Positions 1,224 through 33,030 of a stretch of DNA of 64,000 nucleotides are shown in pieces. The notes beneath the pieces are model-generated. The model had not been told where the DNA came from, did not search any database, and worked only from the letters and a program-made list of their open reading frames with translations. Origin of the DNA: a virus; IMG/VR virus record IMGVR_UViG_3300031578_009495, positions 3,128-67,127 of that record; one strand, 5' to 3'. Made by a program: the position numbers and the translations under genes. How positions within the stretch are numbered: position 1 is the stretch's first letter; each line of letters opens with the position of its first letter.

Positions 1224-2333
1224 ATGCATAGAAAAATAGAAGAATTGAGCGAACTAAATTTAAATAAAAACCTGGAAGAGATATATTTTTCTGAACACGA
1301 GAATTGTCATTATTCAGAAAAGTTTCATGGGAAATTTGGATATTTTGCAAATAGAGATTTATTTGGTTCAAAACTTACTGACCTACTACTGGTTAATAGC
1401 GGGGTAGTTGCTCTTGAACTGGCAATTAAGGCAGCATTTTACCCTTTGTATTTCGAAAACACTTCAAATGTTAAGATCGGCATTCCTGTACTTGCAGATC
1501 CGATGGTAAAATGGGCCGCTGAAAGAGCTGAATGTGTTGAAGAAATAAGATACCTTGATGTTGATCCGAAGACATTTTGCATTAAAGATATTCCAAGCGA
1601 TCTTGATGCAGTGATTTGGGTTCATACTGGGGGTTTGATATCAGAAAAAACAGAGCAAATGTTCAAAAAATGTAGAAATGACTTTGTAATTATAATTGAA
1701 GATATTTCACTTGCATATGGTTCATCTTTCAATGGCAAGAAAGCCGGATCAACAGGTTTTGTTGCCGGTTCTCTTTTTGGCATTACACGCTTTGAAGGTG
1801 GGATTGTTGGGACACGATCAAGGGAAAATTGTGAATTTGTTAGAGCAATGATAAACCAGACATCGCCTTCTATTTATGCACGGGTAATGGACGGACACGA
1901 TCCTGTAAAGTTGTCCAATAAAGGATATAATTATAGAACAAGTGAATTTACAGCAGCAGTTGCACTTGAAAAACTAAAAAATCTTGATAAAGAAATAGCT
2001 GCAAGGCGAGTAATAGCAGATGAATATGACAATGCCCTTTCCAAGATAGGCATTCAAAGTGTTGAAAAAGAACTTGGATGCGTAACCGGATTGTACAAAT
2101 ACATGGTCAGAACAAAGAGCGCTCACAGGCTGAACGATCTTATGGAGGCAGAAGGCTTTTCGTTTACAGGCTTGGTTCACGATAAGCTTTTAGATGAAGG
2201 AGATTATCCTGGAGCAAAAGAACTGGCCGATGGGTATGTGTGTTTGCAGTTGATTGAGGACGCTGAGAAAAGAATATCTTACATTGAAACATTTAAACGA
2301 CTATGGGAAAAAATAAACCAGGGTAAGACATGA
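1224..2333 (+). CDS. DegT/DnrJ/EryC1/StrS-family sugar aminotransferase-like protein (PLP lysine apparently missing)
   Basis: NSGVVALELAIKA, VIWVHTGG, IIEDISLAYGS, EGGIV, GYNYRTSEFTAAV, RRVIADEYD. Confidence 0.8.
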   Translation: MHRKIEELSELNLNKNLEEIYFSEHENCHYSEKFHGKFGYFANRDLFGSKLTDLLLVNSGVVALELAIKAAFYPLYFENTSNVKIGIPVLADPMVKWAAERAECVEEIRYLDVDPKTFCIKDIPSDLDAVIWVHTGGLISEKTEQMFKKCRNDFVIIIEDISLAYGSSFNGKKAGSTGFVAGSLFGITRFEGGIVGTRSRENCEFVRAMINQTSPSIYARVMDGHDPVKLSNKGYNYRTSEFTAAVALEKLKNLDKEIAARRVIADEYDNALSKIGIQSVEKELGCVTGLYKYMVRTKSAHRLNDLMEAEGFSFTGLVHDKLLDEGDYPGAKELADGYVCLQLIEDAEKRISYIETFKRLWEKINQGKT

Positions 2334-2348
2334 TGCAATCCGATTGCA
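2334..2348. promoter_or_regulatory. palindromic operator-like site TGCAATCCGATTGCA
   Basis: perfect 7-1-7 palindrome directly after the DegT stop. Confidence 0.55.
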
Positions 2349-2371
2349 CTAAAAACCTGGAGGTAGAAAAA

Positions 2372-2557
2372 ATGAGGCGAGTAAATGTTATTGATGCAGA
2401 AAAAATGACAAGGAAACAGATGGAAGAGTTTTTAATGGAGAGAGGTTATCGAAATAGGATTTTGTTAGATAGAAAATTAGATAAAATTTTCATAATATTT
2501 ACCGTTGTGATCTGTTCTGCAGTGTTGATACTGCTTGGCTTGGCATTATTATTTTAA
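2372..2557 (+). CDS. small membrane protein
   Basis: SD GGAGG at 2359-2363 favours ATG 2372 over 2330; hydrophobic C-terminal helix. Confidence 0.5.
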   Translation: MRRVNVIDAEKMTRKQMEEFLMERGYRNRILLDRKLDKIFIIFTVVICSAVLILLGLALLF

Positions 2558-2685
2558 AGGCATTAGGGGGTGATTATGTACGCTGATTATATATGGGGTA
2601 TCGGATGGTTAGCTTTTGTGGTGGCTTGGGGTCGCTTTTTGTATCTTTTGTTTACTGATGTATACGAAATAGAATTGAGCAGATT

Positions 2686-4749
2686 ATGGAAAAGAATACA
2701 GTGTTTTATAAGCATGTAAATGCCAAAGCTGTAATACAAGATGGAAGTCCCATAAATGGGATAATACCAGACACAACGAATCGCTATAGCCAAATAGCCC
2801 AAAACACCACAGACCTAAGACCATTAATAAAATCATTAAACCTGCCGGAAGGCAAAGCTCAAGATCTTATATCGCAGATAGAAACATTGCGTGGAAATGA
2901 GACAGAAATGTTTATGGATATACTCAAAGAATTAAGTGATGGTGGTGAAAGCCAAAGTCTTAATAGTATAGTTAGCGATACATACGATGAGATTCCTGTA
3001 GATATTGAAACATTTTTCAGTAACAGTAACTATCTTGGCAGGGCTGGAGCAGACCTGTATCCTAAGTTAATGGAAGACCTTCTCAGATTGTTTAATGGGA
3101 ACTATACGGAAGTAATTTTAAGTGGAGCGATTGGTTATGGAAAAAGCTATTTAACACAGCTAATAATTTGTAGAATCCTGTATGAAGTCAGTTGTTTGAG
3201 AAATCCACAGTGGGCATACGGCCTTGCAGAAAACTCAACACTATTCTTTCCTAATATATCTGTGACGGAAACACAGGCAAAAAGAGTTATATTTGGAGGT
3301 ATAAAGGAGGCTCTCCGTGTATCACCATACTTTCGAGACCAGTTCCCTTTCGAAATGTATTCAACGGAAATGAAATTCCCTAAAAACATATTACTTGGAG
3401 CCATAGCTATGTCAGGCGCTCTTGGTATGGATGTGTTTGCAGCGGCAATGGACGAAACGAACTTTATGGATGTAGTGGAATCGTCAAGACAGGCCAGGGG
3501 AAAAAAATACGATCAGGCTGAAATAATTTATTCGTCTCTTGCAAGACGAATGAAATCAAGATTTTTAAAAAGAGGTAAGTTGCCTGGGATGCTTGTAATG
3601 CTATCGTCTGTTAACTACCCGAATGATTTTACTGAAAGAAAAAAAGAAGAGGCAAAAGAAAACCCGCTATTATTTGTTCTTGATTATGCACTATGGGAGC
3701 CAAAACCTGCAGGAACATATATGGATGAAAAATTTTGGATAAGCATGGGGACAGAGAACCAGCCCCCAAGAGTGATTGAAGACGAAGAAGAAGCTAAAAT
3801 AGAAATAGAAAGAGGTGTAGAGGTAATTGCACCACCTCTTGATTTCCTTCCTGACTTTAAAAGAGACATAGAGGGAGCGTTAAAGGACATAGCAGGCAAA
3901 AGCAAACTGCTTATTAACAGATTTATTACACAAACCGAAAAGATTTTTGAAAAGATAAACATAAACAGAAAACACCCATTTTCTCAACTACAAACAACGC
4001 TTGTAGATGGTGGTAAGTTTATTAGAGAATTGCTTGCGCATCAAATACCTGGCGCCGAAGGAAGTCCTGTATGGAGACCAATAGTAAGTCCATACACAAG
4101 ACGGTTTGGGCATATTGATCTTGCTGTAACTGGAGATGCGGCAGGATTTTGCATAGGGCATCCTAATGGAGAGATTCAGGTAACAAGAAGGAACGAAAAC
4201 CAGGAATTATATTCAGAGATAATGCCTATAGTTTATATAGATATTATGTTAAAAATTATACCACCGCAAGGGTCTGAAATTAATTTCGGAAATATTCGGA
4301 GTTTGTTATATGAACTACAATCTATGGGTTTTCTTTTTGAAAAAGTTACGCTTGATTCATATCAAAGTGTTGACACTATACAGATATTAAATGGACGCGG
4401 TATAAAGGCTGAAGATCTTTCAGTTGACACGTCTATGGAGCCTTACAATGAAGTTAAAAGTGCATTGTATGAAGACAGGCTTATGATGTATTGGTACGAT
4501 TTTGCATTAGATGAATTAAAAAGTCTTATAGTCTCAAGAAGTGGTAGCAAGGTTAAGGTGGATCACCTGCAAGGAAAGTCGAAAGATGTTTCAGACTGTA
4601 TAGCCGGAGTGGTATATAATTGCGTACAATGGATGCGGAATCCTAAGCGAGCGCCGGCACCTGGTCCAAGCCTGGGATATTTCTCAGGAGATGTTCAGGT
4701 AGAAAAGAAACCGGGAGATCTCGGAGAAGATGATTGGATAGATGGATAG
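2686..4749 (+). CDS. terL: terminase large subunit
   Basis: Walker A SGAIGYGKS, Walker B AAAMDETNF, RNaseH-like nuclease HIDLAVTGDAAGF, VTLDSYQS, DHLQGKSKDVSDCIAG. Confidence 0.9.
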   Translation: MEKNTVFYKHVNAKAVIQDGSPINGIIPDTTNRYSQIAQNTTDLRPLIKSLNLPEGKAQDLISQIETLRGNETEMFMDILKELSDGGESQSLNSIVSDTYDEIPVDIETFFSNSNYLGRAGADLYPKLMEDLLRLFNGNYTEVILSGAIGYGKSYLTQLIICRILYEVSCLRNPQWAYGLAENSTLFFPNISVTETQAKRVIFGGIKEALRVSPYFRDQFPFEMYSTEMKFPKNILLGAIAMSGALGMDVFAAAMDETNFMDVVESSRQARGKKYDQAEIIYSSLARRMKSRFLKRGKLPGMLVMLSSVNYPNDFTERKKEEAKENPLLFVLDYALWEPKPAGTYMDEKFWISMGTENQPPRVIEDEEEAKIEIERGVEVIAPPLDFLPDFKRDIEGALKDIAGKSKLLINRFITQTEKIFEKININRKHPFSQLQTTLVDGGKFIRELLAHQIPGAEGSPVWRPIVSPYTRRFGHIDLAVTGDAAGFCIGHPNGEIQVTRRNENQELYSEIMPIVYIDIMLKIIPPQGSEINFGNIRSLLYELQSMGFLFEKVTLDSYQSVDTIQILNGRGIKAEDLSVDTSMEPYNEVKSALYEDRLMMYWYDFALDELKSLIVSRSGSKVKVDHLQGKSKDVSDCIAGVVYNCVQWMRNPKRAPAPGPSLGYFSGDVQVEKKPGDLGEDDWIDG

Positions 4750-9547: not shown

Positions 9548-12319
9548 ATGGGAATCATCAATAATATAAAATCAGGATTAATAGGCAGAATAAAAAATCT
9601 GATAAGCAAAGGTGGTCAGGATATAGGTGGCGTAGATGGAATAAGTCAGGAAAAGCATTCGTCCGGAGACACAACCGAAATCGGCAGACATGGAGACGAA
9701 AGTGAAGGTACAGGAGCTGGTGATTTTTATTACAAAAAAATGATAGTTGAAAGAACCAGACTTGCATCGTATGTCGATTATGAATTAATGGATGCAGAGC
9801 ACCCAGAACTCTCTTCGAGCCTCGATGTATATTCTGATGTGGCTGTAGCTGGTGAAGAATCAGAAGATCAGCGATTTGCAATAGACAGCGAGGACGATAA
9901 AGTTAAGGAAGTTTTACAAGATATCAACAAACGAACCAGAATAGACCAGGAGCTATGGCCATTAACCCGCGATCTTTGCAAATACGGAGATGAGTTTGAA
10001 GAAATAGTGGTAAGCAGTGCCGGACTTATTGTCCGCCTTAAATCCCTCCCACAAAACGAAATGTTCCGGAATGAAGACAAATACGGCCTATTGCTTGAGG
10101 AAAGAGCTTTCGAACAAAAAGACACCCTTACGACAAAAGTTCTTGCACAATTTGAACCATGGCAGATAGCGCACTTTAGAAATAGGACGAGCAGAAAAGG
10201 ACAATATGGAAGCAGTATATTTTCACCAGCAAGAAGACTATTTAAACAACTTCAAATGATGGAAGATGGAATGATAGTTGGTCGGCTTGCAAGGTCCCAC
10301 ATGAGATATGTGTATAAGATAGACGTAGGAGAATTGCCACCACCAGAGGCCGAAGCTCACGTAGAAAGTGTGAAAAGACGAATAAAGAAAAAGCGCCGGC
10401 TGAATCCAATAACCGGAAAATTTGATGTCACCTCTAACCCTCTGAGCGCGGAAGAGGATATGTTTGTAGGGGTACGAACAGGAAGCCAAGCAGGAATCAC
10501 GAAACTTGAAGGAGCGAGTAGGCTGGATGCGATAAAGGATGTTGAATATTTTCAAAACAAAATGTTCACGGTTGTTAAGGTGCCGAAGTCTTATCTTGGA
10601 TTGGAAAAAGATGTATGTCTTGCTGGTGAAACAAAGATATCACTACTTGACGGAAGGGAAGTAGCGATTAAGGATCTCGTAGAGATGTATCCGGATGGAA
10701 AGAAATTCTATGTATATAGCATAGGGCCAGATAATGTTATGTCTGTGGGTGTGGCGCACAGTGCACGGCCTACAAGACGCAATGCAGAGATGGTTAAAGT
10801 TGTCTTAGATAATGGAGAATCTGTGCGCTGTACGCCAGATCATCTATGGATGAGAAGAGATGGAACGTATGTAATGGCTAAGAATTTGAGACCAGATGAT
10901 TCACTTATGCCATTGTATCGAAAAGTATCTGAAAAGGGTAAAAATCCTATCTATGGATATGAAATGTATAAAAATCCAAGGAGGGGAGCTTGGTGTTATA
11001 CGCATAGGATGGTTGGAAAATGGCTTGGAAGGCCTGAATTTCCCGACTGGACATATGGTGTTCAGCACCATGCAGATTTTAATAAAAGGAATAATTGCCC
11101 AACAAATATTGAATGGATGGAATTTTGGGATCATTTAAAACTTCATCAAGATAATGTCCATAGATTAAATACTCCAGAGATGAAGGCAAGAGCACGTATC
11201 GGAATAATAAATTCTGAAAAATTCAAGAAGAGATTGTTAGAATGGAATAAATGTGAAGAAAAGAGAGAAATATGCAAGCAAGCTATGCTTAAATATCACC
11301 AAGAAAATGATTTTACAGGTGAAAATAACCCGAATTATAAAACAGAACTAACCTTAGAAAAAATCATGAAAATGGTTAAAGAAGCATGTTGTTTAAACAG
11401 ATATGATATGGAGAAGCAATTCAAAATAACATATCCATTGCTTATTAGCAGATTGAAAAAAGAAGGAATGAGCTACAAAGAATTCGCCAATCAGTGTTTT
11501 ATTTATGGCTGGCAACATAAAGGCAATTTGTTTAATGATATTCCAATGGAAGGAATCATTGATCAGACAAGAGAAGGCATGCCATTGAAAAAGATAGCCA
11601 AAAGCTTTGAATGCTCTATAGATACTATCAGAAGAATCTGCCACGATCATGATGTTGATAATTTCAAAGATTTAAAAGAAGCCCCATTCAATCATAAGGT
11701 GGTATCTGTGGAACCTGATGGTATGGATGATATTACATATGACATAACAGTAGAAGGGTTAAATAATTTTGCCTTGAGTGTAGGCGTGTTTGTTCATAAT
11801 TCATCCAAGGCATTGCTTTCGAATCAGGATATTCAATTTTTACGTACCATAAGGCGCATCCAACATGTCACCCTAAAGAACGGTCTGAAAAAGATTTATG
11901 ATGTTGGATTATTACTTCAGGGATATGATTTAACGAAAGCAAAATACGAGATTCTTTTTCCCTCAGTGAAAACAGCGGACGAGGTCCGTAAATGGGAAAT
12001 CGAAAAGGCAAAAGCAGAAGCAGCAAAGATATATGGTCTTGACTTGAATGTAGTAACGGATGATTTTATACTCAGCTATTTCCTCGGGCTGTCGGATGAA
12101 GAAATAAAAGATTTGAATATAGTAAGAGAGAAAGAAACAGAAAAGGCAAAGAAAGCAGCCGATGTAGAGGCCGCAGCACAGATTGCAAAGGCACAGGCTG
12201 CTATTAAAGCTGGCGGTAAGGCAGAAGATACTATCAATCTTATGCGGACATTGAATGAATTAAAAGATGTTGTTGCAATGGAGCTTGAGGGAAAGAAATA
12301 TAACAGGCTGATAGAATAA
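9548..12319 (+). CDS. portal protein (T4 gp20-like), intein-containing
   Basis: IVERTRLASYVDYELMDAEHPELSSSLDVYSD, QIAHFR, MMEDGMIVGRLAR, VYKIDVGELPPPEAEAHV, EYFQNKMFTVVKVPKSYL, QFLRTIRRIQ. Confidence 0.9.
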   Translation: MGIINNIKSGLIGRIKNLISKGGQDIGGVDGISQEKHSSGDTTEIGRHGDESEGTGAGDFYYKKMIVERTRLASYVDYELMDAEHPELSSSLDVYSDVAVAGEESEDQRFAIDSEDDKVKEVLQDINKRTRIDQELWPLTRDLCKYGDEFEEIVVSSAGLIVRLKSLPQNEMFRNEDKYGLLLEERAFEQKDTLTTKVLAQFEPWQIAHFRNRTSRKGQYGSSIFSPARRLFKQLQMMEDGMIVGRLARSHMRYVYKIDVGELPPPEAEAHVESVKRRIKKKRRLNPITGKFDVTSNPLSAEEDMFVGVRTGSQAGITKLEGASRLDAIKDVEYFQNKMFTVVKVPKSYLGLEKDVCLAGETKISLLDGREVAIKDLVEMYPDGKKFYVYSIGPDNVMSVGVAHSARPTRRNAEMVKVVLDNGESVRCTPDHLWMRRDGTYVMAKNLRPDDSLMPLYRKVSEKGKNPIYGYEMYKNPRRGAWCYTHRMVGKWLGRPEFPDWTYGVQHHADFNKRNNCPTNIEWMEFWDHLKLHQDNVHRLNTPEMKARARIGIINSEKFKKRLLEWNKCEEKREICKQAMLKYHQENDFTGENNPNYKTELTLEKIMKMVKEACCLNRYDMEKQFKITYPLLISRLKKEGMSYKEFANQCFIYGWQHKGNLFNDIPMEGIIDQTREGMPLKKIAKSFECSIDTIRRICHDHDVDNFKDLKEAPFNHKVVSVEPDGMDDITYDITVEGLNNFALSVGVFVHNSSKALLSNQDIQFLRTIRRIQHVTLKNGLKKIYDVGLLLQGYDLTKAKYEILFPSVKTADEVRKWEIEKAKAEAAKIYGLDLNVVTDDFILSYFLGLSDEEIKDLNIVREKETEKAKKAADVEAAAQIAKAQAAIKAGGKAEDTINLMRTLNELKDVVAMELEGKKYNRLIE
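10616..11800 (+). mobile_element. 395-aa intein with HNH homing endonuclease
   Basis: block A CLAGETKISLLDG, block B VRCTPDHLW, HNH YTHRMV...HHADFNKRNNCPTNIEWM, block F YDITVEGLNNF, block G FVHN followed by Ser. Confidence 0.92.
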
Positions 12320-26889: not shown

Positions 26890-27539
26890 TTATACCTGAT
26901 AGAAAACAGTATGAAATAGCTTTTCATGGAGACGCCTATTTTTTAACTATTTTCGATACTGTTCTTGCAAAAAGTGATGTATTTATTGAAACAGGCACAT
27001 ATCAGGGGCACTCAGCGGAATATGTAGCAAGAACGTTTGGGCATCTCAAAATATTCTCTTGTGAACCCAACTATAAACATTTCGAGATCGCCGAAGAGAG
27101 ACTAAAACCATTCAAGGATAATATTACTTTGAGGAGCGAATTGTCGCCTGGTTTCCTTTACAATATTGTTAAGGCACATCCAGATATTATAAATAAAGAT
27201 GTTGTATTTTGGCTTGATGCACATCCATTTAAGGCCGATCCCTATGAATGGCCATTAAAAGAAGAGATAAACTTTATAACAAAGACTTTCAAAAAGGCGT
27301 ACATTTTTATAGATGATTTCAAGGTACCGGGCCGACCTGACTTTCAGTTTAATTCACATCTTGGACAAGAATATTCCTATGAATTTATTCAGAACGAATT
27401 ATGCAAAGATAAAGCATGCTCAATATATTTCCCTAGCTATAAAGAAAAAACTTCTAAACATCATCCCCTTGTAGGATGGATATTAATTGAATTCGGACAT
27501 CCGAAAATTCAAATACCAGATTTCTGTGAAGGATTGTGA
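26886..27539 (+). CDS. putative SAM-dependent methyltransferase
   Basis: FIETGTYQGHS, FWLDAH, IFIDDF. Confidence 0.65.
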   Translation: MIIPDRKQYEIAFHGDAYFLTIFDTVLAKSDVFIETGTYQGHSAEYVARTFGHLKIFSCEPNYKHFEIAEERLKPFKDNITLRSELSPGFLYNIVKAHPDIINKDVVFWLDAHPFKADPYEWPLKEEINFITKTFKKAYIFIDDFKVPGRPDFQFNSHLGQEYSYEFIQNELCKDKACSIYFPSYKEKTSKHHPLVGWILIEFGHPKIQIPDFCEGL

Positions 27540-30373
27540 TAATGACAGGCAAACGAGTCCTTTTAACAACTTCAGCGGCTCCAGATCAAACACCATTTTC
27601 TACAACAGAGAAAAGACCTCCAATAGGTGTAGGTTTCTTAATTTCTGTTTTAAAGGAAGCCGGCCACAGCGTTTTCTTTATAGACAACTATTTAAAGCCA
27701 AACGATTTTCTTGAAACTGATTATCTGCGAATAAACAACATAGACTATGTTGGTATCTATGCAAATACGATTTGCTACAGAGACACGCTTAGAATGTTGC
27801 ATAAGCTTGACTGGTTCAGGCAGATAGGTAAATGGAGAGGAAAGATTATTGTTGGTGGCCCTCACACAACTGTATGCCCGGACACCATCCCTGACTTTGT
27901 TGATTTTATTGTACAGGGAGAAGGAGAGCGGGCGATACTTGATATAGTTTCAGGGAAAGTAGCTGAAAAAATCGTTAAATATCCTCGCATAGAAAATTTA
28001 GATGAACTGCCAATGCCTGCCTGGGATTATTTTAAGGACTTGCCGTATGACTGGGGAGGAACTTTTTTTACAGAAAAACCTGTATTTGTCGTAAACTCTT
28101 CCAGGGGCTGTCCGTTTAATTGCCTATTTTGTTCTGTTGGGTCTATCTGGGGCAAGAAATACACTTATTTCAGCGCGGAAAGAATTGTATCCGATATAGA
28201 ACATCTTATTAAAACCTATGGTGCGAAAGGAATATATTTCAGGGAAGACAATTTTACACTTAAAAAAGATAGACTTAATAAGTTCTGTAACCTGCTTATA
28301 GAAAAGAACATAAAAATCCAGTGGGCATGTGAGAGCAGGGTTTCAAGCATAGATAGAGAAAATATAGAACTTATGAAAAGATCCGGGTGCTGTGGATTTT
28401 ACTTTGGAGTTGAAAGTGGCTCCCAAAGAGTTTTGGATTTTATAAAGAAAGATATCACTATTGCTCAAACCAAAGAAGTATTTAAACTATGCCATGAATT
28501 TGGAATAAATGCCGCGGCCAGCATCGTAGTTGGAATCCCAACAGAAACTGAGGAAGAGCTTAAACAAACCCTTACCCTAATAAATGAAATCAAGCCAACT
28601 GTGACGTGGTTCAATGTTTTTACTGGCATTCCTAATAGCAAACTCTACAAGTATACGATAGAAAATAACCTCCACAAATTTATAGATGACAGGGGATTGG
28701 TATATTTGCCAAAGCATAATGAATTAACTCAAAGATTTTATGGTGAAAGCTGGGATGCAGCCATACCTGCACAAACCCCCAAAATAAGCGTTGTCATGTC
28801 TGTGTATAATGGAGAGAAACATATACGGAAAGCCATACAAAGCATCCTTCGGCAGACCTATCAGGACTTTGAATTTATTATAGTAAACGATTGTTCTACC
28901 GACAAGACCGTAGAAATTATAAAAAGTTTCAATGATAATAGAATCATAATTATAGAAAATCCGGGAAATATAGGACTTACCAAATCCTTAAATAAAGGGG
29001 TTAAAGAAGCTAAGGGAGAGTATATTGCGCGTATGGATGCGGACGATATTTCACTCCCGCATAGATTCGAAACACAGATTAAATTCTTGGAAGAAAACAA
29101 AGATCATGGTTTGGTTGGCAGTTCGTATTATAAAATGGATGACTCCGGAAAAACTGTATTTTGGGTAAAAGTATTAACGGAAGATTCCGAACTTAGACAA
29201 GGTTTAAAAAGACAAAACTGGTTTGGTCATGGCAGCGTCTTAATAAAAAAATCAGCATTTATAGAATGTAATGGATATGATGAAGATTTTAAATATGCAC
29301 AGGATTATGACCTGTGGGTAAGAATATCTGAGCGTTTTAAAGTAGCAAACATAGAAGAACCGTTATACCGCTGGAGGCTTTCAACAGATGGTGTTACTGT
29401 AAGTAAACAGAAAGAGCAGAGAAGCTACGCAGATAAAGTTATATCTATGACAAATACAAAAGATAGTTTGGTTTCTGTGATTATGCCCACCTACAACCGC
29501 AGGGAATTACTAAGAGAGGCATTGAAAAGCGTTTTTAACCAAACATATAGAAGTTTTGAGATAATAGTTATAAACGATGCTGGCGAAGACGTTAAAGACA
29601 TTGTAGAAGAATTTAACATAGATATTATTACTTATATTGTTCATATGGAGAATAAAGGACTTGCAGCGACCAGAAATTCTGGGCTTAAGATAGCGAAAGG
29701 CAAATATATTTCTTATCTTGACGATGATGATATATTCTACCCGGATCATTTAGAAACCCTTGTTACTTTTTTGGAAGGAAGCGAATATAAAATAGCTTAC
29801 ACAGATGCAGTTAAGATAGATCAGATTTTAGAAAAAGATGGAAAATATACGAATCTAAGCCGTGGATTATATATGTCCATGGACTTTTCAAGAGAACTTT
29901 TATTGTGGAATAATATATCTCCCGTTCACTGCTTTATGCATGAAAAGTCTTGTTTGGATGGTGGTTTAAATTTTGATGATAGCTTTCGGGTTCACGAAGA
30001 TTACGACTTTTGGATGAAGCTGGCCAGGACATATGATTTTAAGCATATAAAAAAAGCCACTGTAGAATATAGGCACAGAACAGAAGGTTTTATCCAGTTA
30101 TCGCGAACTCCACATTTTAAGCTGTCAAGTGTGGTTATAAAAAAAAGACAGGTTGAAGAACGGATACTATATGAACAGAGGCGGAAAGAATTGAATAATA
30201 TTATTAAATCTGACGAAAAGAAAGACATCTCTAATATCACTACACCGGTACAGATACCGGAGCTGGTATCTGTACCTATAGAGCAGAAAAAACATAGGGC
30301 AGATATAGGAGAAAAAAAATCAATACGACAGATAAGATATGACCAAAGAACAATGGAACCGATTTATGAATAA
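27536..30373 (+). CDS. B12-binding radical SAM domain fused to two GT2 domains
   Basis: PPIGVGFL, VGGPH, SSRGCPFNCLFC (CxxxCxxC), FGVESGS; GT2 ISVVMSVYN..ARMDADD; GT2 VSVIMPTYNR..YLDDDD. Confidence 0.92.
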   Translation: MIMTGKRVLLTTSAAPDQTPFSTTEKRPPIGVGFLISVLKEAGHSVFFIDNYLKPNDFLETDYLRINNIDYVGIYANTICYRDTLRMLHKLDWFRQIGKWRGKIIVGGPHTTVCPDTIPDFVDFIVQGEGERAILDIVSGKVAEKIVKYPRIENLDELPMPAWDYFKDLPYDWGGTFFTEKPVFVVNSSRGCPFNCLFCSVGSIWGKKYTYFSAERIVSDIEHLIKTYGAKGIYFREDNFTLKKDRLNKFCNLLIEKNIKIQWACESRVSSIDRENIELMKRSGCCGFYFGVESGSQRVLDFIKKDITIAQTKEVFKLCHEFGINAAASIVVGIPTETEEELKQTLTLINEIKPTVTWFNVFTGIPNSKLYKYTIENNLHKFIDDRGLVYLPKHNELTQRFYGESWDAAIPAQTPKISVVMSVYNGEKHIRKAIQSILRQTYQDFEFIIVNDCSTDKTVEIIKSFNDNRIIIIENPGNIGLTKSLNKGVKEAKGEYIARMDADDISLPHRFETQIKFLEENKDHGLVGSSYYKMDDSGKTVFWVKVLTEDSELRQGLKRQNWFGHGSVLIKKSAFIECNGYDEDFKYAQDYDLWVRISERFKVANIEEPLYRWRLSTDGVTVSKQKEQRSYADKVISMTNTKDSLVSVIMPTYNRRELLREALKSVFNQTYRSFEIIVINDAGEDVKDIVEEFNIDIITYIVHMENKGLAATRNSGLKIAKGKYISYLDDDDIFYPDHLETLVTFLEGSEYKIAYTDAVKIDQILEKDGKYTNLSRGLYMSMDFSRELLLWNNISPVHCFMHEKSCLDGGLNFDDSFRVHEDYDFWMKLARTYDFKHIKKATVEYRHRTEGFIQLSRTPHFKLSSVVIKKRQVEERILYEQRRKELNNIIKSDEKKDISNITTPVQIPELVSVPIEQKKHRADIGEKKSIRQIRYDQRTMEPIYE

Positions 30374-31055
30374 GCCAATAACTTCAATTATCATTTTATG
30401 CTGGAACAATCTTGAATATACCAAACTATGTATAGAGTCTATAATAAAACATACAAAGCAACCATATCAGATTATAGCAATAGACCAGGGCTCTACAGAT
30501 GGGACATCCGATTATCTCATAAAAGCAACGAGGGAATGTAATTGTATTATTATCAAAAATGTAGAAAATAAAGGTTTTGCATGTGGGAATAATCAAGCAT
30601 TAAAATTAGTAGAAAGTGAATATGTATTGATGTTGAACAATGATTGTGAAATAACAGATGATAATTGGTTAGAAATAATGATCAATGCAAGTGGAACAGC
30701 TGATCTTATAGGGGCTGTCTGCAAACAGGTTGCACCGGACTCTATCACAAAAACGTTTAAATATATCGGCGATGGAAAAGAAAATGGCAGATGGAGTTAT
30801 ATAGAAGGATGGTGTTTGTTTGCTAAAAGAGACACATGGCTATCTCTTAATGGATTTGACGAAAAATTTAATCCGGCATTCAGTGAAGATGCAGACCTTT
30901 CTTTCAGGGCAAAGGGGCTTGGCATGAAGATTAAGGCTGTTTCTCTGCCCATTATTCATCATGGAAGCAAATCAATAGGACAAATCCATGGTGGCCATGA
31001 AGCGATGTCGGCTAAAAATAATAGATTATTGTATGGACAATGGATTGGAACATGA
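30339..31055 (+). CDS. glycosyltransferase family 2
   Basis: SIIILCWNN, DQGSTDGT, NKGFACGNNQ, LNNDC, EDADL; start may be 30366. Confidence 0.9.
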   Translation: MTKEQWNRFMNKPITSIIILCWNNLEYTKLCIESIIKHTKQPYQIIAIDQGSTDGTSDYLIKATRECNCIIIKNVENKGFACGNNQALKLVESEYVLMLNNDCEITDDNWLEIMINASGTADLIGAVCKQVAPDSITKTFKYIGDGKENGRWSYIEGWCLFAKRDTWLSLNGFDEKFNPAFSEDADLSFRAKGLGMKIKAVSLPIIHHGSKSIGQIHGGHEAMSAKNNRLLYGQWIGT

Positions 31056-31933
31056 ATACGACTAAAGGATATTGCGAATGCGGATGTGGGAAGCTTACGT
31101 CTATGGCTACAAGGAATAATCGCAATAAAGGACTTAAAAAGGGCGAACCAGTCCGCTTTATTCATGGCCATAGCCATATATTTAAGAAAGGTGGTATCCC
31201 TTGGAATAAAGGGAAGAAAGGTGTAATCCCATCTTGGAATAAAGGTAAAAAAGGTGTAATTCCATCTTGGAATAAAGGGAAGACAAAAGAGACCGATAAA
31301 AGAATCATGGAGGCTTCAAAGAAAGTAAGCATTTCAGTAAAAAAATTATGGGAAAATCCAGACTATCAAGGTGGTAACAAAAAAGGAGTTAAGTTTAATC
31401 TGAGCGATGAACAAAGAAAGCAATATTCAGAAAGACTTAGCGGAGAAGGAAACCCTATGTATGGAATGTCGGGAGAGAAATCTCCTGTTTGGAAAGATGG
31501 TATATCTTTTCTGCCATATCCACCTGAATTTAACAATAAGTTAAGACATAAGATTAAAAAACGAGATGATTTTACATGTCAGTTGTGTGGAATAAAACAA
31601 TATACTTATCAGGCAATTCATCATATTGATTATGAAAAAGACAACTGTAGTGAGTCAAATTTAATAACATTATGCCTGTCTTGCAATGTAAAGGTGAATC
31701 AAAATAGAGATTTTTGGAAACAATATTTTACAGAGATAATAAATAAAGGGAGGATAGAATTATGGACGCGTACCCAAAATTCGGTATCTACTACTAAAGG
31801 CGCCGAATTAAAACCTCTTCTGAATAACGGGAAGGTCTTAACATGTAAAGATGAAGATAACCCGAGGCAAGCCAAGGCAAATGCCTTGTTGCAGCCGCAG
31901 AGCACTGAGCGAAGAGGAACCTTAACAGGTTAA
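31040..31933 (+). CDS. free-standing HNH homing endonuclease with NUMOD3-like repeats, overlapping exon 1 and the intron
   Basis: PSWNKGKKGV repeats, GNPMYG, RDDFTCQLCG, AIHHIDY..NLITLCLSCN. Confidence 0.88.
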   Translation: MDWNMNTTKGYCECGCGKLTSMATRNNRNKGLKKGEPVRFIHGHSHIFKKGGIPWNKGKKGVIPSWNKGKKGVIPSWNKGKTKETDKRIMEASKKVSISVKKLWENPDYQGGNKKGVKFNLSDEQRKQYSERLSGEGNPMYGMSGEKSPVWKDGISFLPYPPEFNNKLRHKIKKRDDFTCQLCGIKQYTYQAIHHIDYEKDNCSESNLITLCLSCNVKVNQNRDFWKQYFTEIINKGRIELWTRTQNSVSTTKGAELKPLLNNGKVLTCKDEDNPRQAKANALLQPQSTERRGTLTG

Positions 31934-32743
31934 ACGACAGTCCGATCTGCATGGAAACATGTAGAGGTTGGCAGAAATGACCAACCCGGCTCTTAGAAAA
32001 GAGCAGGTAACAGAAAAATGGTCTTAGGAACCGTAGAAAGCGAGTCGCATTCATACGCGACCGAAGAATTGGAATATAGAGATGGTTTTAGCACGGATGT
32101 TTTCGATCTCAAGCATGTTGACACAATAACGAGATCAAACCCGAGCTCTTGTGCAGCAACATATGGAATTGGAAAATCTACTGATATAACAAAAAACTCT
32201 TTGGAGGTCCCTCTTGAAACTGTAACTCTTGTGGAGGAAGAAGAAGTAACGGAACCACACATGAGAGCTGTTGATCCAGAGACAAGTCCAGAACTTGGAG
32301 ACAAGTTAACATATACCGATGGCTTGATTTTCCATAGGAAAAAGCAAACGTTGACGATAAACGGAAAAGGCGATCCTCCTGTTGGACTTGGGACTGCCGA
32401 TAGAGGAAATACCTATAGTAGTAGCATTACTCTAAAACCAGCGGTTGGAGGATCTGTCGCCGACATAACAGAAGGATCTGGTTTTTATTTACGGCGCGTA
32501 GAGATTACAAAGGCAAACACCGAATGGCAGAAATTTATGCTTGAACTTGTAAAATATGTGCCAAACACCGCGGATAATGCTCAAGTCAATATGATTACAC
32601 CTGAGTTTTTTGGCGTAGATGCAGGAGACCTCACGGCAATAAGCGCATGGTATAAGCTTAGTCGAACCATTACGCTTAATGGCGAAGGCGCTGCAAATGT
32701 TGAAGAAACAGCAGAAATTTATGACGATGTTGCTGCGGCTTAG
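31762..32743 (+). CDS. major tail protein candidate, join(31762..31785,32021..32743), 248 aa
   Basis: SD GGGAGG before ATG 31762; spliced N-terminus MDAYPKFG-VLGTVESE; position upstream of chaperones and tape measure. Confidence 0.6.
31786..32020 (+). ncRNA. group I intron (ORF-less), 235 nt
   Basis: P1 AAUUCGGU/GCCGAAUU with U-G wobble, P3 CCUCUUC/GAAGAGG, P4 CGGG/CCCG, P7 ACUG/CAGUCC, P8 and P9 hairpins, P10 with the 3' exon, ends ...GGUAACAGAAAAAUG; splicing restores the frame. Confidence 0.85.
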
Positions 32744-32751
32744 GTGATATT

Positions 32752-33030
32752 ATGTCCTACTCAAAAGTAATAGAACCGGCTATTAAAACAAGGCGCGTAA
32801 ATGCAATGCCTCTTATAGGTGGTGCCGGTGTAATCCAGGAATTGGGATATATACAAAAAAAGACGCATAGATTTTTCTGGATTACAACGGCAGAATTGCA
32901 GGCGGAAATAGATACTGAGGTTGCCTTAGGATGGGTTTTGGACGGAGATCCAAGCAGAACGCTTGTCCATGAAGCAATTCCTGATCTGTTTAATGCCGAG
33001 GCTACTTATTTTAGGTACAGCGCTACGTGA
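32752..33030 (+). CDS. hypothetical tail-module protein
   Basis: 92 aa; SD AGGTG. Confidence 0.55.
   Translation: MSYSKVIEPAIKTRRVNAMPLIGGAGVIQELGYIQKKTHRFFWITTAELQAEIDTEVALGWVLDGDPSRTLVHEAIPDLFNAEATYFRYSAT

What the first reader, a model, noticed from the sequence alone, without database searches (positions are those of the whole stretch)
31040..32030. ORF-less group I intron in the major tail gene, overlapped by an upstream free-standing HNH gene
Seen: a strong SD and ATG at 31762 give an 8-codon exon that hits TAA at 31795 if unspliced. P1 (with U-G), P3, P4, P7, P8, P9 and P10 pairings define intron 31786-32020, and splicing gives in-frame MDAYPKFG/VLGTVE. The HNH ORF has no stop until 31933, so it runs through exon 1 and over half of the ribozyme. 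P7 has one extra C (GAGCACUG). Known: collaborative homing between an ORF-less intron and an adjacent endonuclease. Inference: an intermediate stage of endonuclease invasion of the intron; ribosomes translating HNH could gate splicing and hence tail production.
Basis: partly seen in the sequence, partly recalled or inferred. Interest (0 to 1): 0.8.

Follow-up and report, generated by a model that had tools for sequence, protein, structure and literature searches.

The report
Self-splicing intron in phage tail-tube gene
An uncultured soil phage has a small self-splicing RNA intron eight codons into its tail-tube gene, with a selfish HNH nuclease gene just upstream whose reading frame runs on into the intron; this is a well-documented new example of a known kind of mobile-element partnership, not a new mechanism.

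Summary
Window 31786-32020 is a 235-nt ORF-less group I intron. It has an 8-bp P1 with U·G at the 5' splice site, a terminal G at 32020 and a 5-bp P10. Its core belongs to a large covarying family: 93% of cells paired against 58% in shuffles, and 45 of 46 pairs show double changes. Splicing joins MDAYPKFG to VLGTVE. More than 50 intron-less homologues start M-x-YPKFG-[VA]-x-G, so the junction restores a conserved N-terminus. The host gene has a tail-tube fold and sits before the chaperone-like ORFs and the tape measure. The HNH ORF (31052-31933) does read through exon 1 and the 5' half of the ribozyme. Relatives show all four states: HNH present or absent, intron present or absent. The same HNH family also overlaps intron-less tube genes. 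Its stop falls at different places in the intron. The same open frame is already present in an intron with no HNH. The overlap is therefore most likely a by-product, not a captured invasion step or a splicing gate. The arrangement most resembles T4 mobE/nrdB trans homing and cyanophage collaborative homing. Splicing and cleavage are untested. This is a new member of a known kind, of moderate interest.

The parts
31050..31770 (+). HNH cassette: a 721-nt insertion relative to HNH-less relatives. It carries the HNH gene, a new SD and the first three codons (ATG GAC GCG) of the tube gene.
   Evidence: A DNA contig of another soil sample joins 31049 to 31771. The window and L002 differ at only 5 positions over the 2.7 kb upstream and are colinear again from 31771.
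31052..31933 (+). Free-standing HNH homing-endonuclease gene, 293 aa from ATG 31052. That ATG overlaps the GT2 stop as ATGA; the frame is open from ATG 31040. It has a CxCGCG N-terminus, three PxWNKGKK (NUMOD3-like) repeats and an HNH motif at about 31577-31699. Roughly the last 60 codons are read-through of the SD, exon 1 and intron P1-P8.
   Evidence: Pfam HNH 24.7 bits (cut-off 21.4) and NUMOD3 weak. PHROG HNH families score down to 2e-12. Homologues start at the MKxCxCGCG position. General relatives end 10-15 aa after the NRxYWxxYF motif.
31748..31753 (+). Shine-Dalgarno GGGAGG of the tube gene, 8 nt before ATG 31762, lying inside the HNH ORF.
   Evidence: Sequence.
31762..31785 (+). Exon 1 of the tail-tube gene, MDAYPKFG. 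The last base, U31785, is the 5' splice site.
   Evidence: Intron-less homologues start M-x-YPKFG. P1 pairing.
31786..32020 (+). ORF-less group I intron, 235 nt. It has no P2 and no P7.1/7.2, and it has P9.1 and P9.2.
31778..31809 (+). P1 hairpin: exon AAUUCGGU (31778-85) pairs with guide GCCGAAUU (31802-09). The 16-nt loop holds the exon-frame stop TAA 31795-97 and the P10 guide 31797-31801.
   Evidence: Sequence; MFE fold.
31814..31917 (+). P3 (31814-20 with 31911-17) enclosing P4 (31828-31 with 31861-64), P5 (31835-39 with 31854-58) and P6/P6a (31866-31896).
   Evidence: Pair list; every pair shows covariation across 129 relatives.
31902..31942 (+). P7 pseudoknot: G31902 and 31904-07 pair with 31938-42. 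An extra bulged C31903 lies next to the presumed guanosine-binding pair.
31918..31931 (+). P8 hairpin. The HNH frame's stop TAA 31931-33 starts at its 3' edge.
   Evidence: compensatory differences in L003, L004 and L189.
31946..32004 (+). P9 (31946-65, GAAA loop), P9.1 (31966-86, with the family-conserved loop CAGAAAUGA) and P9.2 (31989-32004).
   Evidence: the motif is shared by hundreds of contigs.
32020..32020 (+). Terminal G (omega-G), which is also the G of the in-frame ATG 32018.
   Evidence: Sequence. Relatives end AUG, UUG or UAG before the same junction.
32021..32743 (+). Exon 2 of the tail-tube gene, VLGTVE... to the stop. 32021-25 form P10 with 31797-31801.
32104..32104 (.). Mosaic boundary. 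The window and L002 are identical for the first 83 nt of exon 2, then show 130 mismatches over the remaining roughly 640 nt.

Best explanation
Window 31786-32020 is a functional, ORF-less, self-splicing group I intron placed 24 nt into the tail-tube (major tail) gene of an uncultured siphovirus-like soil phage. Ribosomes start at the strong SD and ATG 31762. On unspliced RNA they stop at TAA 31795 in the P1 loop. After splicing (U31785 joined to G32021) they make the full tube protein with its conserved N-terminus, MDAYPKFG-VLGTVE. The HNH gene just upstream (31052-31933) is a separate selfish element: a 721-nt free-standing homing-endonuclease cassette inserted between the glycosyltransferase gene and the tube gene. 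This cassette family has no stop codon of its own. It always terminates in whatever lies downstream, which is the tube coding sequence in intron-less phages and the ribozyme in intron-bearing ones. The overlap is therefore a by-product. Inferred, not shown: the HNH nicks or cuts HNH-less tube alleles near their 5' end, and repair copies the cassette into the cut genome. The intron begins only 15 bp from the cassette edge, so it is carried along or protects the site, as in T4 mobE/nrdB trans homing or cyanophage collaborative homing.
For: Intron. RF00028 gives E 7.8e-9 and the fold z-score is -6.3. The family model gives 231 bits in the window, with strong covariation in all nine helices and in P7. 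P1 with U·G, the terminal G and P10 are read directly from the sequence. The decisive point is that 55 of 65 homologues begin M-x-[YF]P[KR]FG-x-x-G, for example P0003 MSYPKFGVLGTVEN, which is exactly the spliced junction. The intron-less allele L006 reads ATGGCTTACCCAAAATTCGGA|GTTTTAGGA. In relative L189 the codon before exon 2 is UAG and the next Met lies more than 25 residues in, so that lineage needs splicing.

Host gene. An AF2 model (pLDDT 86.9) has a top-50 match list that is almost entirely tail-tube, Hcp and related tail-hub proteins: R4C tail-tube protein Z 7.4, phiCD508, pyocin tube, GTA, SPP1 and lambda gpV. The gene is followed by 92-, 220- and 267-aa ORFs and a 955-aa tape measure.

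HNH as an independent element. L001 and L002 carry the same intron (99.5% identical) without the HNH. L009 carries the HNH with an intron-less tube gene and a 67-nt overlap. L004, L187 and L189 carry both. DNA contigs in a second soil sample show an HNH-less form and an HNH-plus, intron-less form. The stop position and the exon-1 frame vary. The same open frame is present in the HNH-less L002. A sharp mosaic boundary lies 83 nt into exon 2, and the P1 loop is a divergent patch. Both fit gene conversion centred here. Precedent comes from PMC2790892 (mobE) and PMC3984707 (collaborative homing).
Against: There is no experimental or transcript evidence of splicing: the one RNA-library contig spans 31610-31862 unspliced and may be DNA. 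Rfam's curated threshold is not reached (40.7 against 50 bits). P7 carries a rare extra C beside the presumed G-binding pair, which could slow splicing. An in-frame ATG sits at the 3' splice site with a weak AGGU 9 nt upstream, so a truncated tube protein could be made without splicing. HNH activity and its target site are unknown. Genomes with the HNH but no intron show that the intron is not needed for self-immunity. That weakens strict collaborative homing, in which the target is the intron insertion site, relative to simple trans homing.
Confidence: 0.8

Rival explanations
1. One reading: the overlap is functional. Ribosomes translating the HNH frame through P1-P8 unfold the ribozyme and gate splicing, and hence tail production, and the arrangement is a caught intermediate of the HNH gene moving into the intron.
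For: The HNH ATG overlaps the GT2 stop (ATGA), so translation could be coupled to an upstream gene. Reviews report that ribosomes entering a group I core interfere with splicing and that an early in-frame stop is the usual safeguard (PMC3984707). At least nine HNH homologues read through into the intron.
Against: The stop position is not conserved: P5 in L004 and L189, P8 in the window, and P9.1 in P0077. Exon 1 is read in two different frames. The same cassette overlaps intron-less tube genes. The open frame is already present in the HNH-less L002 and is common by chance, about 20% of frames. The endonuclease found inside this intron elsewhere is a LAGLIDADG gene in P6.
Confidence: 0.1
2. The intron is a decaying, non-splicing relic, and the tube protein is translated from ATG 32018 without its first eight residues.
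For: There is an in-frame ATG exactly at the 3' end. A rare extra C lies in P7. Residues 1-8 are predicted disordered, pLDDT 45. Gene callers annotate the 241-aa form.
Against: All helices, P1, P10, the strong exon-1 SD and the conserved exon-1 codons are intact. The same P7 variant persists in three independent samples with intact genes. F6 and G7 of the N-terminus are invariant in 35 homologues. Relatives have UUG or UAG instead of AUG at this spot.
Confidence: 0.05
3. The HNH protein is not a homing endonuclease acting at this locus. It could be a domesticated or packaging-associated HNH, and its position next to the intron could be coincidental.
For: No cleavage data exist. HNH proteins also serve in phage DNA packaging (general knowledge).
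Against: It shows presence/absence polymorphism between phages that are about 99.8% identical in the upstream flank. It always abuts the tube gene 5' end, whatever the upstream neighbour. It has the NUMOD3 plus HNH architecture typical of homing enzymes. It sits at a mosaic boundary.
Confidence: 0.05

Closest known systems
Phage T4 mobE and the nrdB group I intron (trans homing; Wilson and Edgell 2009, PMC2790892)
   Same: A free-standing HNH gene lies immediately upstream of an intron-bearing gene. It has no evident promoter of its own and follows the upstream gene directly. In T4 it nicks the 5' region of the downstream gene in HEG-less phages and drags along an intron that cannot move by itself.
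   Different: Here the intron has no ORF at all, whereas T4's holds the defunct I-TevIII. It lies only 24 nt into the gene, so the HNH frame runs through exon 1 into the ribozyme. The host gene is structural (tail tube) rather than nucleotide metabolism. Cleavage is untested here.
Collaborative homing: cyanophage S-PM2 F-CphI with the ORF-less psbA intron, and the Aeromonas/T-even nrd system (Zeng et al. 2009 and Bonocora and Shub 2009, as summarised in PMC3984707; F-CphI in PMC6083498)
   Same: [quoted passage not shown]
   Different: F-CphI is an Endo VII-type enzyme encoded downstream of the intron-bearing gene. Its target was shown to be the intron insertion site. Here the target is unknown, and genomes with the HNH but no intron exist.
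Group I introns in Staphylococcus phage Twort orf142, later recognised as the tail-tube gene (mentioned in PMC11878797)
   Same: Self-splicing group I introns interrupt a phage tail-tube gene.
   Different: Twort has three introns well inside the gene of a myovirus. Here there is a single intron eight codons from the start, with a different architecture: no P2, no P7.1/7.2, and a P9.1 with a conserved loop.
Intron-encoded endonuclease ORFs that extend into ribozyme core sequences (PMC3984707, Fig. 2b)
   Same: A nuclease reading frame overlaps catalytic-core helices, so the same bases serve both RNA structure and coding.
   Different: Those ORFs start inside the intron. Here the ORF starts outside, upstream of the exon, and the overlapping tail is not conserved as protein.
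Bacterial 23S rRNA group I introns sharing the ACAGUCCGA...GGCAGAAAUGACC (P7-P9.1) signature
   Same: They share the P7 3' strand, P9 and P9.1 with its conserved loop. The motif is found in more than 120 bacterial genomes, mostly Actinomycetota, and lies inside LSU rRNA genes in the three examined.
   Different: They sit in rRNA rather than in a protein-coding phage gene. The subgroup was not assigned here.

Membership tests
Group I intron (Rfam RF00028) | Conserved core helices P3-P9, including the P3/P7 pseudoknot | tested here: met
   The pair list fits the window. Across 129 relatives 93.1% of cells pair, 45 of 46 pairs show double changes, and the controls give 38-58%. P7 is 96.9% paired with covariation.
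Group I intron (Rfam RF00028) | P1 formed by the 5' exon and an internal guide, with U·G at the 5' splice site | tested here: met
   An 8-bp P1 ends in U31785·G31802. The same pairing occurs in L002, L003, L004, L187 and L189.
Group I intron (Rfam RF00028) | Terminal G at the 3' splice site, with P10 aligning the 3' exon | tested here: met
   G32020 is terminal, and 32021-25 pair with 31797-31801.
Group I intron (Rfam RF00028) | Score at or above Rfam's gathering threshold (50 bits) | tested here: not met
   The score is 40.7 bits, E 7.8e-9 on 801 nt, with no hit at gathering. The shortfall comes from the absent P2 and a misaligned P1. The core aligns well.
Group I intron (Rfam RF00028) | Removal restores an intact, conserved host gene | tested here: met
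   The spliced N-terminus MDAYPKFG|VLGTVE matches M-x-YPKFG-x-x-G of the intron-less homologues.
Group I intron (Rfam RF00028) | Guanosine-dependent self-splicing | not testable with these tools
   No spliced joint was seen in the one RNA library that holds part of the region.
HNH homing endonuclease (PF01844 with NUMOD3 DNA-binding repeats) | HNH catalytic motif with flanking Cys pairs | tested here: met
   Pfam HNH 24.7 bits, above the 21.4 cut-off, at residues 180-220. PHROG HNH families score down to 2e-12. CQLC...HHID...N...CLSCN is seen in the translation.
HNH homing endonuclease (PF01844 with NUMOD3 DNA-binding repeats) | Sporadic presence or absence at one genomic site among close relatives | tested here: met
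   It is absent in L001, L002 and L006 and present in the window, L004, L009, L187 and L189. An HNH-less joint 31049/31771 occurs in a second sample.
HNH homing endonuclease (PF01844 with NUMOD3 DNA-binding repeats) | Site-specific nick or cut in the allele that lacks it | not testable with these tools
   Only indirect evidence: a mosaic boundary at 32104 and a divergent P1-loop patch.
Collaborative / trans homing pair (free-standing endonuclease plus ORF-less intron) | An ORF-less intron and a free-standing endonuclease gene adjacent at the same locus | tested here: met
   The right edge of the HNH cassette (31770) is 15 bp from the 5' splice site. No ORF of 30 codons or more starts and ends inside the intron on the + strand.
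Collaborative / trans homing pair (free-standing endonuclease plus ORF-less intron) | [quoted passage not shown] | not testable with these tools
   The target is unknown. Genomes with the HNH and no intron (L009) show that the intron is not required for immunity.
Siphovirus tail-tube (major tail) protein | Tail-tube / Hcp beta-sandwich fold | tested here: inconclusive
   The best Z is 7.4 (8gtb R4C tail-tube protein, 112 residues aligned, rmsd 3.2), and the top 50 are almost all tail-tube, Hcp and related tail-hub proteins. Z is below the tool's stated confidence level of 8. Foldseek against PDB has no hit at E<=0.001. BFVD's best hit is a Salinibacter phage structural protein at 2e-8. There are no Pfam or PHROG hits.
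Siphovirus tail-tube (major tail) protein | Gene position: after the head and neck genes, and before the two chaperone-like ORFs and the tape measure | tested here: met
   The order is tube, 92 aa, 220 aa and 267 aa (overlapping), then a 955-aa ORF. The order is the same in all related loci. In L009 small neck-like ORFs directly precede the HNH and tube gene.

The most novel reading that the evidence does not exclude
The conserved lack of a stop codon in this HNH cassette is selected. Translation of the nuclease through the tube gene's ribosome-binding site, the 5' splice site and the ribozyme core would couple nuclease expression inversely to splicing and tail-tube synthesis. This would be a translational switch between selfish spread and virion production.
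Probability: 0.1. Interest if true: 0.7.

Novelty: new member of a known kind. Interest (0 to 1): 0.42.

Why it matters
For annotation, gene callers truncate this tube protein (241 aa from ATG 32018) and miss exon 1, and Rfam at its default threshold misses the intron. The same error probably affects many metagenomic phage genes, because this intron class occurs in hundreds of contigs. For mobile-element biology, one site in one phage lineage shows all four combinations of free-standing HNH and ORF-less intron. It also shows a version invaded by a LAGLIDADG gene and a version holding only a remnant of that gene. This natural series could be used to test the collaborative or trans homing model and the gain-decay-loss cycle of homing endonucleases. 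Conceptually the pieces were all described by 2009-2014.

Tried and rejected
The Rfam gathering-threshold scan of the whole window gave no hit. The intron appears only in E-value mode.

Pfam and PHROG gave nothing for the tube protein or the downstream ORFs. Foldseek against PDB gave no match at E<=0.001, so the fold call rests on VIA-align and synteny.

Transcript evidence was sought and not obtained. One metatranscriptome (X5) holds only short contigs over 31000-31062 and 31610-31925. They are unspliced or DNA, and there is no cover of the 3' splice site, so they say nothing about splicing.

Deposited phage genomes (INPHARED) gave no tblastn match to the tube protein and no blastn match to the intron. 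No cultured relative or host was found.

An alternative P7 extension (31898-31901 with 31946-31949) was rejected, because 31946-65 form a covarying P9.

The idea that the HNH is intron-encoded, with a 5' splice site upstream of it, was rejected. Exon 1 with the conserved YPKFG codons lies downstream of the HNH domain, and P1 uses it.

The idea that the read-through tail is a conserved protein extension was rejected. Exon 1 is read as TQNSV in some lineages and LPKIRY in others, and the ends differ.

One Rfam call with 12 loci failed internally and was repeated with 6. The intron's subgroup (IA/IB/IC...) was not assigned.
Full report
**1. What is in the sequence**

- A GT2 glycosyltransferase gene ends at TGA 31053-55.
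- An ORF in another frame is open from ATG 31040. Its likely start is ATG 31052, which overlaps the GT2 stop as ATGA and matches where homologues begin. It has no stop until TAA 31931-33.
- Inside that ORF lie GGGAGG (31748-53) and ATG 31762. These open an 8-codon frame, MDAYPKFG, which runs into TAA at 31795-97.
- ATG 32018 opens a 241-aa ORF that ends at 32743.

**2. The intron is real**

Rfam finds nothing at gathering score. On the 801-nt region RF00028 scores 40.7 bits, E 7.8e-9, with P3-P9 well aligned and P1/P2 misplaced.

Reading the sequence directly gives the following.
- P1 pairs AAUUCGGU (31778-85) with GCCGAAUU (31802-09) and ends in U31785·G31802.
- There is no P2.
- P3, P4, P5, P6/6a, P7, P8, P9, P9.1 and P9.2 are all present (pair list).
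- The terminal G is G32020.
- P10 is 5 bp: 32021-25 with 31797-31801.

The MFE fold alone reproduces all nested helices, with z = -6.3 and 0 of 200 shuffles as good.

The 3' core signature ACAGUCCGA...GGCAGAAAUGACC occurs in 54 viral contigs. A covariance model of P3-P9.1 finds 129 copies in 100 sources. It finds exactly one in the window (231 bits) and one in the whole 94-kb record.

On that alignment 93.1% of cells pair, against 57.7% in shuffles and 38-45% when partners are slid. Forty-five of 46 pairs show changes on both sides. P7, given as a pseudoknot, is 96.9% paired with 18 G-C to A-U double changes. The alignment was fitted to the model, so these figures lean towards the structure, but the margin over both controls is very large.

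**3. Splicing restores a conserved protein**

Of 65 homologues of the 241-aa ORF, 55 are 242-247 aa (one is 266 aa) and begin M-x-[YF]P[KR]FG-x-x-G. P0003, for example, begins MSYPKFGVLGTVEN, and F6 and G7 are invariant. That is exactly MDAYPKFG|VLGTVE.

The intron-less locus L006 reads ...TACCCAAAATTCGGA|GTTTTAGGA..., with the GT2 stop 20 nt upstream.

The few homologues that lack this N-terminus all carry the intron:
- L001 and L002: the same intron, 99.5% identical outside the P1 loop.
- L004 and L005.
- L003.
- L189.

P8, P9, P9.1 and P9.2 differ between these copies by compensatory changes. In L189 the triplet before exon 2 is UAG, and the next Met is more than 25 residues downstream. That lineage cannot make a near-full-length tube protein without splicing. 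The in-frame AUG at the window's 3' splice site is therefore probably incidental, since relatives have AUG, UUG or UAG there.

**4. The host gene**

Neither Pfam nor PHROG matches it. An AlphaFold2 model of the intron-less homologue has pLDDT 86.9, with only residues 1-8 at low confidence.

In an exhaustive structural comparison the top 50 matches are almost all tail-tube, Hcp and related tail-hub proteins:
- R4C tail-tube protein, Z 7.4, 112 residues aligned, rmsd 3.2
- phiCD508 tail
- R-pyocin tube
- GTA tube
- SPP1 tail-tube protein
- lambda gpV

These Z values are modest, and Foldseek E-values are weak. The gene order supports the same reading: tube, 92 aa, two overlapping ORFs of 220 and 267 aa, then a 955-aa tape-measure-like ORF. 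The order is conserved in all related loci. In L009 the gene follows small neck-like ORFs with no sheath gene. I read it as the major tail (tube) protein of a siphovirus-like phage.

Twort orf142, the classic three-intron gene, is also a tail-tube gene (PMC11878797). An intron in such a gene therefore has precedent.

**5. The HNH gene**

The protein has these features:
- a CxCGCG N-terminus
- three PxWNKGKK repeats (NUMOD3-like)
- an intact HNH motif (Pfam 24.7 bits against a 21.4 cut-off)

General relatives end 10-15 residues after the NRxYWxxYF motif. By that measure the window's protein is complete by about 31750, and its last 60 or so codons are read-through.

The gene is a discrete cassette. 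A DNA contig from another soil sample joins 31049 to 31771. L002 differs from the window at only 5 positions over the 2.7 kb upstream and is colinear again from 31771. The cassette brings its own SD, ATG and first codons for the tube gene, which is why the window has MDAY where L002 has MAY.

**6. Why the overlap is most likely a by-product**

- All four states exist:

| HNH | Intron | Examples |
|---|---|---|
| absent | absent | L006 and most others |
| absent | present | L001, L002 |
| present | absent | L009, where the HNH ORF 2174-3058 overlaps the intron-less tube ATG 2992 by 67 nt; also P0071, P0073, P0076 |
| present | present | window, L004/5, L187/8, L189/190, and P0067, P0069, P0075, P0077, P0080 by their C-termini |

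  A second soil sample also holds an HNH-plus form in which about 238 nt, matching the intron, are missing.
- The HNH stop is not conserved. It lies in P5 in L004 and L189, in P8 in the window and P0067, and as far as P9.1 in P0077.
- Exon 1 is read as TQNSV in some lineages and as LPKIRY in others.
- The HNH-less L002 already has the same 66-codon open frame ending at the same TAA. About 20% of frames in this intron family are open over 120 nt, against 16% in shuffles.
- The endonuclease that did enter this intron is a LAGLIDADG gene in P6 (L003). L187 and P0077 keep only its first codons, MEMGIDSEL, which is a decayed remnant.

**7. Signs of gene conversion at the site**

The window and L002 are identical through exon 1, through the intron apart from the P1 loop and one base, and through the first 83 nt of exon 2. 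They then drop abruptly to about 80% identity, with 130 mismatches from 32104 onward. The 16-nt P1 loop is a divergent patch between two otherwise identical sequences.

Both features fit repair tracts centred on the 5' end of the tube gene. That is what a nuclease acting there would leave. This is inference; ordinary phage mosaicism could give the same pattern.

**8. Mechanism**

Shown by sequence and comparison:
- an exon-frame stop in the P1 loop, the usual arrangement in phage introns (PMC3984707)
- an independent HNH cassette 15 bp from the splice site

Inferred:
- The HNH gene is expressed from upstream transcription. No promoter-like or terminator-like site lies on the + strand in 30300-32900, and the start is an ATGA overlap.
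- It nicks or cuts HNH-less tube alleles near their 5' end.
- It is copied in by repair, together with the neighbouring intron.

T4 mobE shows exactly this behaviour. It is a free-standing HNH gene upstream of nrdB that nicks the 5' region of nrdB and mobilises the nrdB intron in trans (PMC2790892). Whether the target equals the intron insertion site, which would be strict collaborative homing (PMC3984707), cannot be told here. Genomes with the HNH but no intron show that the intron is not needed for immunity.

**9. Open points**

- There is no direct evidence of splicing.
- The extra C31903 sits between the presumed guanosine-binding G-C pair and the next pair of P7, and it is almost unique to this lineage. 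It recurs in three independent samples and in an RNA-library contig. It is therefore not an assembly error and is presumably tolerated.
- Ribosomes translating the HNH frame would pass through P1-P8 and could transiently block folding. This is plausible in principle, but nothing found here shows it is selected.

**10. Verdict**

[quoted passage not shown] It is not a new mechanism.

Noticed in passing
window 9548-12319 (+): The T4-like portal gene (Pfam Portal_T4, 4e-49) is interrupted by an intein. The Intein_splicing domain spans residues 364-751 (E 2.8e-16), and HNH-endonuclease PHROG matches lie inside it. This is a second self-splicing mobile element in an essential structural gene of the same phage.
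   Followed up: partly
L013-L186 (viral and metagenome contigs); for example L025, L029, L020, L033 and L084: The intron class defined by ACAGUCCGA...GGCAGAAAUGACC (P7, P9 and P9.1 with the conserved loop CAGAAAUGA) is very widespread. It occurs in 54 viral contigs and more than 120 metagenome contigs, and some phage contigs carry three to six copies within a few kb. Host genes and subgroup were not determined.
   Followed up: partly
L192-L271 (bacterial genome contigs); L192, L194, L203: The same motif occurs in more than 120 bacterial species, mostly Actinomycetota MAGs (Acidimicrobiia, Solirubrobacterales, Gaiellales). In the three loci examined it lies inside 23S rRNA genes. In L203 the LSU match spans 5.1 kb for a 2.9-kb model, so it holds more than one insertion.
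   Followed up: partly
L003 2094-3003; L187 2855-2905: In a relative, the same tube-gene intron carries a 233-aa LAGLIDADG_2 ORF inserted in P6 (910-nt intron). Another lineage, which also has the HNH, keeps only about 40 nt of it, including the codons for MEMGIDSEL. This looks like a gain-and-decay series for a homing endonuclease gene.
   Followed up: partly
window 31789-31800 and 32104 onward, compared with L002: Two otherwise almost identical phages differ in a 12-nt patch of the P1 loop. They switch abruptly to about 80% identity 83 nt into exon 2. This is a sharp mosaic junction beside the nuclease gene.
   Followed up: yes
window 31190-31291 (+): Three tandem near-identical 11-residue repeats (IPWNKGKKGV, IPSWNKGKKGV, IPSWNKGK) lie in the HNH N-terminal half. 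Relatives have two. They are probably NUMOD3-type DNA-binding modules that vary in copy number.
   Followed up: no
window 27536-31055 (+): A B12-binding radical SAM, GT2, GT2 fusion (945 aa) and a further GT2 gene sit directly upstream of the tube gene. Related phages have other glycosyltransferase, GHMP-kinase and SIS-domain genes at the same place. This suggests a variable sugar-modification module next to the tail genes.
   Followed up: no
window 31610-31925: A marine-sediment metatranscriptome library holds short contigs nearly identical to the HNH 3' end, exon 1 and the intron 5' half, with the L002-type P1 loop. This would place close relatives outside soil, but the share is small and the contigs may derive from DNA.
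   Followed up: partly
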